NCBI GenBank assembly: GCA_005223125.1 | Contig: NJBH01000052.1 | Coordinates: 1 to 20,656 of the forward strand | Direction: 5' to 3' | DNA from: Promethearchaeota archaeon Loki_b32 | GTDB lineage: Archaea; Asgardarchaeota; Lokiarchaeia; Sigyniarchaeales; SOKP01 | DNA: 20,656 nucleotides | Shown here: one piece after another, positions 12,954 to 16,796 of the stretch | Position numbering within the stretch: the first letter of the stretch is position 1 | Layout of the letters: each line of letters begins with the position of its first letter | The notes under the pieces: generated by a model | Told to the model about the DNA's origin: nothing | Databases searched by the model: none | Seen by the model: the letters and a program-made list of their open reading frames with translations, nothing else | Made by a program: the position numbers and the translations under genes

Positions 12954-13250
12954 TTAAGCGCTTTCCAATTTGAATAAGATAGAAGCATGGGGAATGTAGA
13001 ATTCATCCTTCTTCTTAATTACGACTGTGTGAAAATATTCAGCAAGACCGAGGAAACCACGAATAACTGATTCATCTTCCTCGAATCTGAAGATTACAGA
13101 AGCAATAGCGGCCCCTGTACTGAAGCTAACTTTATCATAGACTCTTTCGTCAATTAGAGGGATTTTAAGCTCATTTACAATTTCATATACCCTTTTTTCA
13201 CAAACCTAACGAGATGCTAAGCCTATTATGAAGAGTTCACGTTTAGGCAT
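12954..13250 (-). CDS. 98-codon hypothetical protein interrupted by an in-frame TAG at codon 15 (nonsense allele, sequencing error or recoding); absent from the ORF track
   Basis: Manual translation: MPKRELFIIGLASR*VCEKRVYEIVNELKIPLIDERVYDKVSFSTGAAIASVIFRFEEDESVIRGFLGLAEYFHTVVIKKKDEFYIPHASILFKLESA-stop. GGTGA lies 7 nt before the ATG; no in-frame ATG follows the TAG (13206-13208). Confidence 0.75.
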
Positions 13251-13257
13251 ATTTTTT

Positions 13258-13262
13258 TCACC
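13258..13262 (-). promoter_or_regulatory. Shine-Dalgarno GGTGA for the gene starting at 13250
   Basis: + strand tcacc = GGTGA on the minus strand, with a 7-nt spacer to the ATG. Confidence 0.65.
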
Positions 13263-13551
13263 AATGCAGTTTAAACTTTATTGTTCGTGTCTTATTTTTA
13301 AAATTTATTTTAAAATTTATAAAGTAATTAATTTTTAAACTTACTAATGAAATATTTTATATAATATTATTAGTTTAGGATTTTTAATAATTAACGTTTT
13401 TTTAGATGTAAGTAATATTTGGGTATATAGAGTCAATTAAGAATGGAATAAAAATATAAATACATATTAATATAATTAAAATATAAACATTATAAATAGT
13501 AATTTTAATTTTAATCTATTTTTCAATAATATTAGAGGAATTGAGTAGAAC

Positions 13552-14253
13552 GTGGTTTCAAAAGAACAGAAAAAAATTGAACGAGTAATTAATTTTATGA
13601 AAAAAGGGTTAACTTCTTTAGCTGATGATCTAGAAGAAACTGTTAAAGGGTTAAATGATTTTATCAAATCTTTAGCTAAAGCTCAGAAGGATTTGAAGGA
13701 AGTCTCTGTTGTTGACGAAATTCAAACTGTAAGCACTTCCTCTAAAAAAATAGTAACGCCAACAAGTGAGGGTGCTAAAACAGCAGCAGCCAGTACATTA
13801 TTTAGCTTATTAAGCAGCGGTGGAGGTGCTGCTCCTGCAAGCGCTCCTACTCCTGCTGTGGCCTCTACATCAGGTATTCCTGCAGCTCCTGCACCTCCAA
13901 CTGGTGGTGGGCCTCCTAAAGCGCCATCTATTGGCCCTCCAAAAGCACCAACTGGTGGTGGGCCTCCTAAGAAACCAAGTTTACCCCCTGCTCCAAAATT
14001 ACCTCCAACTGGTGGTGGGCCTCCTAAAGCACCAAGTGCTCCTTCTAGCGGTGTCCCCCCGGCAGCGCCCGCGTTTGCAAAACGACCTGCAGTTCCCGGT
14101 GCTCCTCCTGGTGGCGGACCTCCTCGTCCTCCTGCACCTGCTACTCCAGCAGCACCAGCAGTAGCTTCTCAAGCAGGTGGTGGTTTAGGTTCTCTTCGTG
14201 ATGAAATGTTAGATGAATTAAATCGTTTGAAGAAAATTATGAGAGGAGAATAA
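13552..14253 (+). CDS. Coiled-coil + proline-rich + C-terminal amphipathic helix (WH2-like) protein
   Basis: N-terminal heptad-like helix (about residues 8-52), long Pro/Ala/Gly tract with PTGGGPPK x3, C-terminal GGGLGSLRDEMLDELNRLKKIMRGE. GTG start; T-run follows the stop. Confidence 0.8.
   Translation: MVSKEQKKIERVINFMKKGLTSLADDLEETVKGLNDFIKSLAKAQKDLKEVSVVDEIQTVSTSSKKIVTPTSEGAKTAAASTLFSLLSSGGGAAPASAPTPAVASTSGIPAAPAPPTGGGPPKAPSIGPPKAPTGGGPPKKPSLPPAPKLPPTGGGPPKAPSAPSSGVPPAAPAFAKRPAVPGAPPGGGPPRPPAPATPAAPAVASQAGGGLGSLRDEMLDELNRLKKIMRGE
13897..14027 (+). repeat. Three identical 23-bp direct repeats CCAACTGGTGGTGGGCCTCCTAA (coding, PTGGGPPK)
   Basis: Copies at 13897-13919, 13948-13970 and 14005-14027; periods of 51 and 57 bp keep the frame; degenerate copy (PGGGPPR) near 14107. 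Confidence 0.95.
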
Positions 14254-14256
14254 TAG

Positions 14257-14283
14257 TTTCAATTTTTTTTACATATTCTTTTC
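14257..14283 (+). terminator. Oligo-T terminator-like tract after the proline-rich gene
   Basis: T8 run at 14263-14270 plus further T runs shortly after the stop. Confidence 0.35.
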
Positions 14284-14392
14284 GAGTTATCTATTCTCTT
14301 AATTCTATTTTCTAAAATCTTTTTCTTAAATTTATCAATAAAATTTTTAATTTTTAATAAAGTGTATATATTTAATATCAGAAAATCCTCAT

Positions 14393-15121
14393 ATGATTTG
14401 TGATGATAATATTCTGATTATTGTTCCTAGAAGAATAATGGTTTTCGCAGGACATCCTGATGATGAATTAATCTCTTGCGGAGGAACAATCTTAAAATAT
14501 CAAAATCTAGGGTCAGAAATTAAAATTATTATAGCTACATCTGGATCAGGAGGGTATGCAAAAGACCATGAAAAAGATAAAATTCTACAGCAAAGAAAAA
14601 GTGAACTATACCTTATTAAATCAATACTAAATTGCCATTTTGTAGAATTAAATTATTTAGATTTAGAAATAACTAGAGAAAAAATCTCTCAAATAACAAA
14701 TTTAATAAGGGATTTTAAAACACAAATAGTTCTTATTCCACATTATACTGATTTTCATAGGGTTCATAGAAATTTATCATTAATTACAAGGGAAAGTATT
14801 TATCATTGTTCTTCCGGGAAAGCATATGGAGGTCATCAGAGGAGTTGGACTCCTTTAGGAGTATATTATTATGAATCTCCTTCATGCAAGTTTCAATACA
14901 TAGAAGGATCTGTTTTTGTTATAGTGAATATTGAGGATTATTGGGAAAAGAAAAAAGAAATTTTTAATCAAGTATATACTTCTCAAAAAGAAGTCTTAGA
15001 ACGGGTCCTAGAATGGGCAGAGGATATAGCTATTCTAAGGGGAAACGAAATTAATAAGGTTTTTGGCGAAGCTTTTATGCCGGAGACTACTTATACTCCA
15101 TTAAAGATTCTATTAGTGTAG
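14393..15121 (+). CDS. PIG-L/LmbE family N-acetylglucosaminyl deacetylase
   Basis: MVFAGHPDDE..CGGT metal motif, R..E, D.HRVH (variant of HPDH), SQ and EAF near the C-terminus. Confidence 0.9.
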   Translation: MICDDNILIIVPRRIMVFAGHPDDELISCGGTILKYQNLGSEIKIIIATSGSGGYAKDHEKDKILQQRKSELYLIKSILNCHFVELNYLDLEITREKISQITNLIRDFKTQIVLIPHYTDFHRVHRNLSLITRESIYHCSSGKAYGGHQRSWTPLGVYYYESPSCKFQYIEGSVFVIVNIEDYWEKKKEIFNQVYTSQKEVLERVLEWAEDIAILRGNEINKVFGEAFMPETTYTPLKILLV

Positions 15122-15214
15122 AAGTAAGTATATTTTTTTAATAAATAAAATAATATATTAGATATAACTAAATCGAGTAGTATTCTAAAAAATAAATTTG
15201 AACCAAAAAAAGGT

Positions 15215-16336
15215 ATGGGAAATCTAACAGTTGTTCTTGATATTGGGCAGTTCAGTTCAAAGATAGGCCTCGCAGGAGAGGACAGTCCATCGCAAGTGTT
15301 CCTAACGATGGTTGGAAAGCCAAAATATCAAAGTGTTAGTGTTAATTACGAATCTAAGAAATCTAGTGGAGATGAAATATACGTAGGAGATGAAATTCAA
15401 TCAATTGGGTTATATAAAATTTTCCATCCTATAGAAAAAGGCATTATTGTTGATTGGACCCATTTCAAGATTATCCTTGATTATATATTCTATAACTTGA
15501 GAGTAGATCCTACACTTGTTAATATTTTATTCGCTGTTCATCCATTATTTCCTTATAAGGATTTAGAGAAAATCTTTGAAGTTTTCTTAGAACAATTCCA
15601 AGTAATGGGATTTTATCCCGTTCTAGACAGTATGTTAACATTATATTCTGGTGGTTTTCAAACAGGATTGATTGTGGAGATTGGAGATAGTAATACAAGA
15701 ATAGTTCCTATATATGAGGGATATAAATTGGAACACGCAGTAAGGATTTTGGATATTGGAGGCAGAGTATTAACTCGTCACATGGAGCAAACTTTAGAGT
15801 CTATTGGTTGGTCAGTTGATTCCTCAATACGAAGAGAATTAGTTAGGGTTTTAAAAGAAAAGGCGTGTTTTGTCTCATTAGACTATAAAGAAGATCTGAA
15901 ACGTAGTGAACAATATGAGAAAGAATATTCTTTACCAGATGGCTCAACTATTTCACTAAATAAAGAACGGTTTATTGTACCTGAAATACTATTTAAACCA
16001 ACTTCACAATTAGAAGAAGATGCACTACACGTAGCTATAATGGATGTAATTGAAGCATGTGACTTAGATATTCGCCCTGACTTGTTGAATAACATATTTC
16101 TTTCTGGTGGTTCATCTATGTTTCCAAATTTAAAATCACGAATTTATCAAGAATTAGAATTAGAGTTAGCGAGAAGAAAGAAGAAAAGTCAAATGATTAG
16201 AATTATTGCTCCTATGGAACGTACGTTTTCTGTATGGATTGGTGGTTCAATCTTAGCAATGATTCCAGAATTTTCTCAGAATTGGATTACTCGAGCTAAA
16301 TATTTTAATGAAGGAATCCCACCAAATCTTCTATAA
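15215..16336 (+). CDS. Actin-related protein (eukaryote-type actin family, Asgard Arp-like)
   Basis: Colinear with actin: VLDIGQFSSKIGLAGED.P, YVGDE, PIEKGII.DW, VPIYEGY, LDIGGR.LT, LKEKACFV, YSLPDG..I....ERF..PE.LF.P, CDLDIR..L..NI.LSGGSSMFP, IIAP.ER.FSVWIGGSILA. Confidence 0.96.
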   Translation: MGNLTVVLDIGQFSSKIGLAGEDSPSQVFLTMVGKPKYQSVSVNYESKKSSGDEIYVGDEIQSIGLYKIFHPIEKGIIVDWTHFKIILDYIFYNLRVDPTLVNILFAVHPLFPYKDLEKIFEVFLEQFQVMGFYPVLDSMLTLYSGGFQTGLIVEIGDSNTRIVPIYEGYKLEHAVRILDIGGRVLTRHMEQTLESIGWSVDSSIRRELVRVLKEKACFVSLDYKEDLKRSEQYEKEYSLPDGSTISLNKERFIVPEILFKPTSQLEEDALHVAIMDVIEACDLDIRPDLLNNIFLSGGSSMFPNLKSRIYQELELELARRKKKSQMIRIIAPMERTFSVWIGGSILAMIPEFSQNWITRAKYFNEGIPPNLL

Positions 16337-16457
16337 TAAGTATCATCTCACTTCTTAGAAAATATCCCCATAATATTATGATATTACATTTTGTTAAATA
16401 ATAATTTTCAATAATATTTCATATTGTAAACACTCTTTTTTAAAGGGATAAAAGAAT

Positions 16458-16796
16458 ATGGAAGATTTCGAAGAAAATAAGTTTTACAAACCGAGTTATT
16501 CAAATTTATTTAATAAAATTAAAGATATCAAAACCCCAATAAAAAACGAAATACTTATAGCATTACTTGACGGACATTGGCATTCTGAATTAGAATTAAT
16601 AAGAGTTACAAAGAAACAATATGGATTTGTTGGGCCTGTAACTTTAGGAACTATGGTTGGCGCTTTAAATCATACTATCAAAAATAATTACTTACAGAAG
16701 AAATTTGTAAATAGTAAGCTTTATTATAAAATATCAGATAATTATATCGGTTTAACACGAGCAGCCTATCGTTTTGATTCAAATGATTTTCTTTAG
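16458..16796 (+). CDS. Putative winged helix-turn-helix protein
   Basis: EILIALLDGHWHSELELIR helices, recognition-helix-like VTLGTMVGALN, wing LQKKFVNSKLYYKIS. Confidence 0.6.
   Translation: MEDFEENKFYKPSYSNLFNKIKDIKTPIKNEILIALLDGHWHSELELIRVTKKQYGFVGPVTLGTMVGALNHTIKNNYLQKKFVNSKLYYKISDNYIGLTRAAYRFDSNDFL

What the first reader, a model, noticed from the sequence alone, without database searches (positions are those of the whole stretch)
12954..16796. Candidate Asgard actin-nucleation module: NPF-like protein plus divergent Arp in one locus
Seen: a coiled-coil/Pro-rich/WH2-like gene lies under 1 kb upstream of, and co-oriented with, an actin-related gene. A PIG-L deacetylase sits between them, a wHTH gene follows, and a small unknown gene is divergent. 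Established: eukaryotic WASP/WAVE/WIP/VASP proteins combine an oligomerisation or targeting region, a proline-rich linker and WH2 motifs, and Asgard archaea have actins, profilins and gelsolins. I know of no characterised Asgard nucleation-promoting factor. Inference: a primitive nucleator or filament-end module, perhaps ancestral to NPF-Arp systems. Gene proximity may be coincidental, and a T-tract after 14253 suggests separate transcripts.
Basis: partly seen in the sequence, partly recalled or inferred. Interest (0 to 1): 0.85.

Follow-up and report, generated by a model that had tools for sequence, protein, structure and literature searches.

The report
Pan-Asgard proline-rich tether beside actin paralog
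The genes are as described, but the proline-rich protein is not a dedicated partner of the neighbouring actin-like gene: it is an undescribed, usually single-copy protein found in most Asgard archaea, and the partner of its near-invariant end helix (possibly the main actin) is untested.

Summary
Observation confirmed. All five genes exist at the stated coordinates.

The "NPF plus Arp module" reading fails its own test.
- The proline-rich gene (PRO) sits next to the actin paralog only in one Lokiarchaeial family, where about 20 kb is collinear.
- In the sister family both genes exist but are unlinked.
- The locus joins two older pairs: small gene c4 with PRO (adjacent in at least 6 families), and PIG-L with the actin paralog (also adjacent in a sister-family genus).

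PRO's 20-residue C-terminal helix occurs in 210 of 251 Asgard genomes, usually once per genome. It is carried on a soluble helical head (these lineages also have c4), on a membrane anchor, or rarely on small GTPases or in tandem arrays.

It is not a WH2 domain: no Pfam match, a linker that is too short, and no acidic tail. My ESCRT MIM1 idea failed an independent scoring test.

The two multi-genome families without the motif have a divergent actin with an altered barbed-end cleft. This is weak support for the main actin (Lokiactin) as partner, in the manner of arcadin-2.

The neighbouring actin paralog is actin-like rather than Arp2/3-like, with substituted catalytic residues.

The scan found this protein before on other genomes, with similar conclusions. 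Binding is untested.

The parts
12954..13250 (-). c4: small conserved alpha/beta protein (about 88 aa in most relatives), divergent from PRO. Here it is interrupted by a 30-nt insertion at 13197-13226 that carries the in-frame TAG at 13206-13208.
   Evidence: Translation. Insertion-free alleles in most relatives. Adjacent to the soluble-type PRO gene in families f1, f5, f6, f15, f22 and f24 (and 3 kb away in f2). AlphaFold pLDDT 90.6, with no solved fold match.
13552..14253 (+). PRO: pan-Asgard proline-rich, helix-tipped protein of the soluble type.
   Evidence: (alignment A1).
13552..13716 (+). N-terminal helical head of PRO (about residues 1-55).
   Evidence: Conserved across the order (A1). 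Lineages with this head also have c4. Lineages with a membrane anchor in its place mostly lack c4.
13783..13827 (+). Short conserved hydrophobic motif (Leu-Phe-x-x-Leu-Leu type, residues 78-92) before the proline-rich tract.
   Evidence: Invariant A79, A80, L83 and L87 in A1. Similar motifs occur in distant soluble and multi-pass membrane forms.
13834..14181 (+). Proline-rich spacer. It includes the conserved Leu-Pro-Pro-x-Pro-Lys-Leu-Pro-Pro element at 13981-14007.
14185..14250 (+). Near-invariant C-terminal amphipathic helix, the defining motif of the family (invariant L215, M219, E222).
   Evidence: Alignment A3 of 20 sequences from 16 or more families. Found in 210 of 251 Asgard genomes. 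99 clusters in 1.84 billion representatives.
14393..15121 (+). PIG-L/LmbE-family deacetylase. Present between PRO and the actin paralog in 49 of 76 related loci.
   Evidence: PF02585, 73 bits. Weak BshB1-like match. Directly upstream of the actin paralog also in sister-family genus g5. Locus counts.
15215..16336 (+). Divergent actin paralog (an 'ARP' in the loose sense), 42% identical to the genome's own Lokiactin.
   Evidence: PF00022, 294 bits. Four actin-family genes in the genome. Best solved relatives are actins. Substitutions N12I, S/T14Q, G15F, Q137D, D154E and H161R, plus changed cleft residues.
16458..16796 (+). Winged-helix-like small protein. It follows the actin paralog in 75 of 76 family loci but not in the sister family.

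Best explanation
The locus is a family-specific juxtaposition of two older gene pairs, c4 with PRO and PIG-L with an actin paralog, followed by a winged-helix gene. It is not a dedicated NPF-Arp module.

PRO is the local representative of a near-universal, usually single-copy Asgard protein built as a tether:
- An anchor. This is a soluble helical head that travels with the small protein c4 in Loki- and Odin-size lineages, and one or about ten transmembrane helices in other classes.
- A short hydrophobic motif.
- A floppy proline-rich arm of 100-150 residues.
- A near-invariant cytoplasmic end helix of 20 residues.

Inferred mechanism: the end helix docks on a highly conserved cytosolic partner. 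The most likely partner is the barbed-end hydrophobic cleft of the main actin (Lokiactin), as the C-terminal helix of arcadin-2 does on crenactin and WH2, gelsolin or cofilin helices do on actin. This would tie actin monomers or filament ends to the anchor.

Shown: architecture, distribution, synteny and the failure of WH2 and MIM1 membership. Inferred: the partner and the effect on actin.
For: **Synteny**
- 76 of 80 related loci keep PRO and the Arp together, but the whole block from the phosphoribosyltransferase gene to topoisomerase III is collinear there.
- In the sister family the two genes are unlinked.
- c4 is adjacent to PRO in 6 families of several classes (and 3 kb away in f2). Its distribution matches the soluble type: 0 of 26, 0 of 16, 0 of 5 and 0 of 5 in four membrane-type families.
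- PIG-L abuts the Arp in the sister-family genus g5.

**Distribution of the motif**
- 210 of 251 genomes, and 82 of 89 high-quality genomes, mostly one copy each.
- All confirmed genome hits are Promethearchaeota.
- The protein falls in an unnamed 357-member cluster.

**Architecture**
- Membrane-anchored forms have basic residues after the transmembrane helix, so the helix faces the cytoplasm.
- Tandem arrays of 2-3 motifs and fusions to Ras/Roc GTPases exist.

**Link to actin**
- The only multi-genome families without the motif (0 of 5 and 0 of 7) have an actin only 51-53% identical to Lokiactin, against 66-74% in the four other families compared. Cleft positions 148, 351, 355 and 356 are changed.
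- One of these families keeps ESCRT-III.
- Precedent for an archaeal linker-tethered C-terminal helix in the actin cleft: PMC5173319.
Against:
- No sequence similarity to WH2, and none detectable to any solved peptide.
- PRO is not linked to the Lokiactin gene, which lies on contig C38 while PRO is on C20.
- The two motif-less families look related to each other, so the actin covariation is probably one evolutionary event in small genomes that may have lost much else.
- Two single-genome families without the motif have a normal actin.
- A Lokiactin co-immunoprecipitation in L. ossiferum reported gelsolins, a profilin and an Arf GTPase, but no such protein (10.1101/2025.11.30.690169).
Confidence: 0.4

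Rival explanations
1. PRO is a tether whose end helix recruits some other conserved cytosolic partner, not actin. Candidates include a component of the Asgard small-GTPase/roadblock-longin machinery, or another polymer. The proline-rich arm and the second hydrophobic motif would bind further factors.
For: - The motif occurs inside Ras/Roc-GTPase proteins and next to a Cys-rich module, with a longin- or roadblock-like tail by eye.
- No actin, profilin or gelsolin gene is a conserved neighbour in any lineage. Neighbours of the membrane type are housekeeping genes (rpiA, PIN-KH ATPase, EndA).
- The steady genomic partner is c4, of unknown fold.
Against: - The partner must be present and highly conserved in nearly all Asgard classes, since L, M and E of the helix are invariant. 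Few proteins other than Lokiactin are known to fit (PMC9834061).
- c4 itself cannot be the universal receptor, because membrane-type lineages keep the helix without c4.
Confidence: 0.35
2. The end helix is a MIM1-like motif that binds the MIT domain of Vps4, so PRO would be an ESCRT adaptor.
For: - A proline-rich linker before a terminal Leu-rich helix is the layout of ESCRT-III tails.
- A hand-made pattern shared with the two ESCRT-III C-termini of this genome hits only 4 of 3664 proteins.
- Asgard ESCRT-III carries MIM1-like helices (PMC7240154).
- In one closed genome PRO lies 10 kb from ESCRT-III genes.
Against: - The pattern was post hoc. A scoring matrix built only from 15 ESCRT-III C-termini of other Asgards ranks PRO 391st of 3664.
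- Registers differ upstream of the 10-residue core.
- There is no linkage in the other genomes.
- Family f23 has ESCRT-III but no motif.
Confidence: 0.07
3. One reading: PRO and the neighbouring actin paralog form a dedicated nucleation or filament-end module in this family, with PRO's helix binding the paralog.
For: - Co-oriented adjacency in 76 of 80 family loci, with gaps as short as 129 nt where PIG-L is absent.
- The paralog has lost canonical catalytic residues, as regulatory Arps have.
Against: - The linkage is no deeper than general synteny and is lost in the sister family.
- PRO is far more widespread than the paralog.
- The helix is invariant across lineages that lack the paralog.
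- The paralog's cleft residues differ from Lokiactin's (R147F, T148Q, T351E, M355N).
- T-runs suggest separate transcripts.
Confidence: 0.08
4. The end helix is a membrane-binding or self-associating amphipathic helix rather than a docking peptide.
For: Its hydrophobic positions follow an 11-residue periodicity (3-4-4-3-4 spacing), which is seen in lipid-binding and straight-bundle helices (read from A3).
Against: - Invariant acidic residues and an invariant Met point to specific protein recognition.
- Many carriers are already membrane-anchored.
Confidence: 0.1

Closest known systems
Arcadin-2 of Pyrobaculum (crenactin regulator; PDB 5LY3; PMC5173319)
   Same: An archaeal protein with a core, a non-conserved unstructured linker and a small conserved C-terminal helix. 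In arcadin-2 that helix alone binds the hydrophobic groove of the archaeal actin.
   Different: - No detectable sequence relation.
- Arcadin-2 is encoded in the arcade cluster beside its actin; PRO is not linked to Lokiactin.
- PRO has a long proline-rich arm, alternative membrane anchors and a second motif.
- Actin binding by PRO is untested.
WH2-domain proteins (WASP/WAVE, WIP, Spire, Cobl)
   Same: - A proline-rich region precedes a short amphipathic helix ending in a basic Leu-Lys-Lys-type element.
- Rare relatives carry 2-3 tandem copies, as tandem-WH2 nucleators do.
- Some carriers are fused to small GTPases, which echoes GTPase control of NPFs.
   Different: - No WH2 profile match even at E 10.
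- The helix is about 5 turns and runs straight into the basic element, with a 2-residue rather than a 5-6-residue linker.
- The Lys-Lys is not conserved across the family.
- There is no central/acidic region for Arp2/3.
- No eukaryotic homologues were found.
ESCRT-III C-terminal MIM1 helices (Vps2/24/46 class, including the Asgard ones; PMC7240154)
   Same: A flexible linker followed by a terminal Leu-rich amphipathic helix with a similar 10-residue core.
   Different: - The independent ESCRT-III-derived matrix does not single PRO out (rank 391 of 3664).
- PRO lacks an ESCRT-III core.
- PRO has extra conserved hydrophobic residues at both ends of the helix.
Asgard gelsolins with an internal WH2-like motif (2DGel; PMC9433394, 10.1101/2025.11.30.690169)
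   Same: The only WH2-like elements reported so far in Asgard actin regulators.
   Different: Those motifs sit between gelsolin domains. PRO has no gelsolin domain and a different, much longer conserved helix.

Membership tests
WH2 domain (PF02205) | Match to the WH2 profile | tested here: not met
   No Pfam hit for the whole protein at E 0.01. No hit for the last 40 residues of three family members at E 10.
WH2 domain (PF02205) | A 2-3-turn helix, then a linker of about 5-6 residues, then a conserved Leu-Lys-Lys-Thr/Val element | tested here: not met
   The linker is 2 residues. Across 20 sequences the basic pair varies (Lys-Lys, Lys-Glu, Arg-Glu, Lys-Ala), while the invariant positions lie in the helix (L215, M219, E222).
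WH2 domain (PF02205) | Binds monomeric actin in the barbed-end cleft | not testable with these tools
   No multimer prediction or assay was available.
WASP/WAVE-type NPF (VCA) | Central helix and acidic Trp-containing tail that engage Arp2/3 | tested here: not met
   The protein ends 3 residues after the helix and has no acidic or Trp tail.
WASP/WAVE-type NPF (VCA) | The partner is an Arp2/3-type complex | tested here: inconclusive
   The neighbour's 60 best solved relatives are all actins, none Arp2 or Arp3. No phylogeny was run. ARPC subunits were not searched.
Dedicated PRO-Arp gene module | Linkage or co-occurrence conserved beyond general synteny | tested here: not met
   Adjacent only in family f1, where about 20 kb is collinear. 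Unlinked in 7 of 7 sister-family genomes. The motif is in 210 of 251 genomes, whereas the paralog clade is restricted.
MIM1 (MIT-interacting motif 1) | Consensus acidic-x-x-Leu-x-x-Arg-Leu-x-x-Leu-Lys/Arg | tested here: not met
   Positions 4, 8, 11 and 12 fit (with Met for Leu). Position 1 is Arg and position 7 is Glu. The genome's own ESCRT-III tails also have Glu at position 7.
MIM1 (MIT-interacting motif 1) | Scores like Asgard ESCRT-III C-termini | tested here: not met
   A matrix built from 15 ESCRT-III tails ranks PRO 391st of 3664 proteins, while an ESCRT-III of this genome ranks first.
Arcadin-2-like tethered-helix actin regulator (functional class) | Core, unstructured linker and small conserved C-terminal helix | tested here: met
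   Alignments A1 and A3. The ESM Atlas model is mostly low-confidence (mean pLDDT 0.52), as expected for a largely disordered protein.
Arcadin-2-like tethered-helix actin regulator (functional class) | The helix binds the hydrophobic groove of the cognate actin | not testable with these tools
   Only indirect evidence: the motif-less families f20 and f23 have changed cleft residues. The 17-residue arcadin-2 peptide is below the length limit of the solved-structure search.
Actin family (PF00022), for gene 15215-16336 | Match over the curated cut-off | tested here: met
   294 bits against a cut-off of 27.
Lokiactin (main Asgard actin), for gene 15215-16336 | Orthology and conserved catalytic residues | tested here: not met
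   42% identity to the genome's Lokiactin, which scores 441 bits. Substitutions Q137D, H161R, G15F and D154E are conserved in families f1 and f2.
PIG-L/LmbE deacetylase (PF02585), for gene 14393-15121 | Match over the curated cut-off | tested here: met
   73 bits against a cut-off of 28. Below the cut-off for every NCBIfam equivalog.
Winged helix-turn-helix fold, for gene 16458-16796 | Helix-helix-helix-hairpin wing fold | tested here: met
   AlphaFold pLDDT 77. The top Foldseek hits are almost all winged-helix proteins (probability 1.0, E about 0.014, TM 0.5-0.65). No sequence family matches.

The most novel reading that the evidence does not exclude
PRO is the Asgard solution to spatially controlled actin assembly. 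A membrane-, c4- or GTPase-anchored protein has a proline-rich arm (possibly a profilin or SH3-like landing pad) and a terminal actin-cleft-binding helix. Together these deliver or hold Lokiactin at membranes. It would be a pre-eukaryotic analogue, conceivably a forerunner, of the WASP/VASP/formin logic, with tandem-helix relatives acting as nucleators.
Probability: 0.15. Interest if true: 0.9.

Novelty: new variant of a known kind. Interest (0 to 1): 0.55.

Why it matters
Published work holds that Asgard archaea regulate their actin mainly through profilins and gelsolins. How filaments are tied to the membrane of their protrusions is open.

A usually single-copy protein present in about 84% of sampled Asgard genomes is a concrete, cheap-to-test candidate for that link, or for another core Asgard interaction. 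Its cytoplasmic end helix is near-invariant and hangs from membrane anchors, GTPases or a soluble head.

It also matters negatively. The attractive "NPF next to Arp" picture, noted repeatedly in this scan, is an accident of synteny in one family. It should not be used as evidence for an archaeal Arp2/3-like system.

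Tried and rejected
1. **WH2 membership.** No Pfam WH2 hit, even for the isolated C-terminus at E 10.
2. **MIM1/Vps4 idea.** A hand-made pattern looked striking. An independent matrix from ESCRT-III tails ranked PRO 391st of 3664, and there is no consistent linkage to ESCRT genes. I dropped it to a minor rival.
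3. **Profile of the helix against all solved chains.** Only chance GCN4-type coiled-coil matches.
4. **c4 fold.** The model is confident, but Foldseek E is at least 0.27 and VIA Z is at most 4.5. No assignment was possible, and the alpha-beta-beta-alpha-beta-beta-beta order did not retrieve roadblock proteins.
5. **Neighbours of membrane-type relatives.** Only housekeeping genes.
6. **Phyletic test against ESCRT-III and actin presence.** Both are almost universal, so only the f20/f23 contrast was informative.
7. **Search for the L. ossiferum orthologue.** I wanted to check the published co-immunoprecipitation list, but the low-complexity query gave 20 unnamed hits. I did not pursue it.
I reran it without motif strings.
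10. **Bacterial promoter and terminator scan.** Uninformative for an archaeon.
11. **A strict bulge-helix-bulge drawing of the c4 insertion** could not be made by hand.

Full report
**What is there**

The window is contig C20 of a 4.13-Mb Asgard (Promethearchaeota) genome with about 30% G+C. The finding's stretch holds five genes.
- c4, a small minus-strand gene at 13250-12954.
- PRO, a 233-aa proline-rich protein at 13552-14253, with no Pfam or NCBIfam family.
- A PIG-L family deacetylase at 14393-15121.
- An actin-family gene at 15215-16336.
- A 112-aa gene at 16458-16796.

AlphaFold and Foldseek support a winged-helix fold for the last gene. T-runs follow the PRO and PIG-L stop codons.

**The actin-family gene**

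The genome has four actin-family genes, as reported for cultured Lokiarchaeia (PMC9834061).
- The main actin (Lokiactin) is on contig C38 and scores 441 bits. The window's gene scores 294 bits and is 42% identical to it.
- Its 60 best solved relatives are all actins, not Arp2 or Arp3.
- Against Lokiactin it carries N12I, S/T14Q, G15F, Q137D, D154E and H161R. It also has a three-residue D-loop insertion and changed barbed-end cleft residues (R147F, T148Q, T351E, M355N). These changes are conserved in its orthologues.
- Clear orthologues were seen in the window's family f1 (83-92% identity within the genus, 71-93% across the family loci) and in the sister family f2 (47-58%). A fragment occurs in f3. 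None exceeded the Lokiactin level in f4.

**Is PRO linked to it?**

Within family f1, yes.
- Of the 80 best loci from a scan of 185,579 species genomes, 76 hold both genes, co-oriented.
- PIG-L lies between them in 49 loci and is absent in 27, where gaps go down to 129 nt.
- The winged-helix gene follows in 75 of the 76.

In those loci everything from the phosphoribosyltransferase gene to topoisomerase III is collinear, so the linkage carries no specific information. In all seven genomes of family f2 both genes exist but are 44 kb apart, 70 kb apart on opposite strands, or on different contigs.

Two deeper pairs emerge instead.
- PIG-L abuts the actin paralog in f2 genus g5, with a 22-nt gap.
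- c4 lies next to PRO in families f1, f5, f6 (1.4-Mb, Odin-size genomes), f15, f22 and f24, and 3 kb away in f2.

The locus thus joins two older pairs in one family.

**What PRO is**

Alignments A1 and A3 show five parts:
- a helical head of about 55 residues
- a short Leu-Phe-x-x-Leu-Leu-type motif
- a variable proline-rich arm
- a conserved Leu-Pro-Pro-x-Pro-Lys-Leu-Pro-Pro element
- a terminal 20-residue amphipathic helix with invariant Leu215, Met219 and Glu222, and near-invariant Glu218, Arg225 and Leu226

A profile of that helix finds a match in 210 of 251 Asgard genomes (82 of 89 high-quality ones), in 23 of 30 families. There is almost always one match per genome, at the very end of an open frame. 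All confirmed genome hits are Promethearchaeota; one record bears a bacterial label.

The carrier differs by lineage.
- Some have the soluble head.
- Others have one N-terminal transmembrane helix plus a coiled coil (about 255-340 aa).
- Others are multi-pass membrane proteins with about ten helices (556-628 aa).

Basic residues after the transmembrane helix place the arm and the helix in the cytoplasm.

c4 was found in the soluble-type families and in almost none of the membrane-type ones: 0 of 26, 0 of 16, 0 of 5, 0 of 5 and 3 of 59. So c4 probably works with the soluble head. It cannot be the universal receptor of the helix.

Among 1.84 billion protein representatives, 99 clusters carry the helix. 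Exceptions to the C-terminal rule are tandem arrays of two or three copies, and proteins in which a Ras/Roc GTPase is joined through a proline-rich stretch to the helix and a Cys-rich module. That Cys-rich module is specific to family f1. The window's genome has one member with a degenerate helix, at C10:20701-21186.

The family is unnamed in the ESM Atlas. I found no paper describing it. [quoted passage not shown]

**What the helix binds**

- *WH2: rejected as membership.* There is no profile match. The linker is too short. The Lys-Lys pair that prompted the idea is not conserved. There is no acidic tail.
- *MIM1: my own lead.* The two ESCRT-III proteins of this genome end in a similar 10-residue core, and a pattern covering them and PRO hits only 4 of 3664 proteins. 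But that pattern was post hoc. A matrix trained only on ESCRT-III tails from other Asgards ranks PRO 391st, and ESCRT genes are not consistently nearby.
- *Solved structures.* A profile search gave only chance coiled-coil matches.
- *Arcadin-2.* This lead came from earlier notes of this scan. In arcadin-2 a conserved C-terminal helix on an unstructured linker binds the hydrophobic groove of crenactin (PMC5173319). The layout is the same, but the sequences are unrelated.

One new piece of indirect evidence bears on actin.
- The only multi-genome families without the motif (f20, 0 of 5; f23, 0 of 7) have an actin just 51-53% identical to Lokiactin. The four other families compared show 66-74%.
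- In these families cleft positions 148, 351, 355 and 356 are changed.
- f23 keeps ESCRT-III.

This favours Lokiactin over Vps4 as the partner. It is probably a single evolutionary event in small genomes, so it counts for little.

**Verdict**

- The gene-module interpretation is not supported (probability about 0.08).
- PRO is a real, conserved and apparently undescribed pan-Asgard tether.
- That its helix grips Lokiactin is the best single guess (about 0.4) but is inferred.
- An unknown other partner is nearly as likely (about 0.35).

The scan found the same protein earlier in other genomes (e1-5605315, e1-5577571) and reached similar conclusions. New here are:
- the complementary distribution of c4 and membrane anchors
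- the PIG-L-Arp pair
- the census with the helix profile
- the GTPase and tandem forms
- the tested and failed MIM1 idea
- the f20/f23 actin contrast

**Limits**

- No multimer prediction was available.
- No actin phylogeny was run.
- The N-terminal coiled coil was not formally predicted.

Noticed in passing
window 13197-13226 (minus strand), within gene 13250-12954: The in-frame TAG of the small gene c4 lies in a 30-nt insertion that most relatives lack; those read straight through.
- The same insertion, or 30-33-nt variants, sits at the same site in at least 8 other genomes.
- A different stop-carrying insertion of about 33 nt sits at a second site in two genomes.
- The insert folds into a hairpin whose stem shows compensatory changes between genomes.
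- Both junctions fall in an internal loop between an exon-exon helix and the intron hairpin.
- The downstream reading frame stays conserved.

This looks like a mini-intron or another excised element, not pyrrolysine or readthrough.
   Followed up: partly
window 14393-16336; L180 and L183 (sister-family genus g5): The PIG-L deacetylase gene directly precedes the actin paralog (22-nt gap) in a sister-family genus as well. This pair is therefore older than the PRO-paralog adjacency. A functional link between a sugar or thiol deacetylase and an actin paralog is unexplained.
   Followed up: partly
G000:C10:20701-21186 (same genome, another contig); L186-L197: A Cys-rich (zinc-ribbon-like) module family is confined to the window's family (49 of 54 genomes). 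It is often fused to Ras/Roc small GTPases and sometimes preceded by one or two copies of PRO's terminal helix. The copy in this genome carries a degenerate helix.
   Followed up: partly
L201-L204 (families f20 and f23): Two Asgard families have only a divergent actin (51-53% identical to Lokiactin). It has changed barbed-end cleft residues, a different D-loop and a different C-terminus. These families lack the PRO helix. In f20 no ESCRT-III was found either (genomes 81-83% complete).
   Followed up: partly
L063 (record DATKTW010000083.1): A contig labelled as a Nanopelagicaceae bacterium carries the full Lokiarchaeial block: c4, PRO, PIG-L, actin paralog, winged-helix gene and topoisomerase III. 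It is probably mis-binned or mislabelled.
   Followed up: no
G032:C7:4008-5174, G043:C97:541-1704 and relatives (family f7): Long open frames of 582-754 aa match the actin profile in permuted order: positions 68-409 come first, then positions 5-69. This suggests circularly permuted or rearranged actin-fusion genes.
   Followed up: no
P0196 (metagenomic representative): One relative has a transmembrane helix, a complete Loki-type PRO and a C-terminal TIR domain (PF13676, 66 bits).
   Followed up: no
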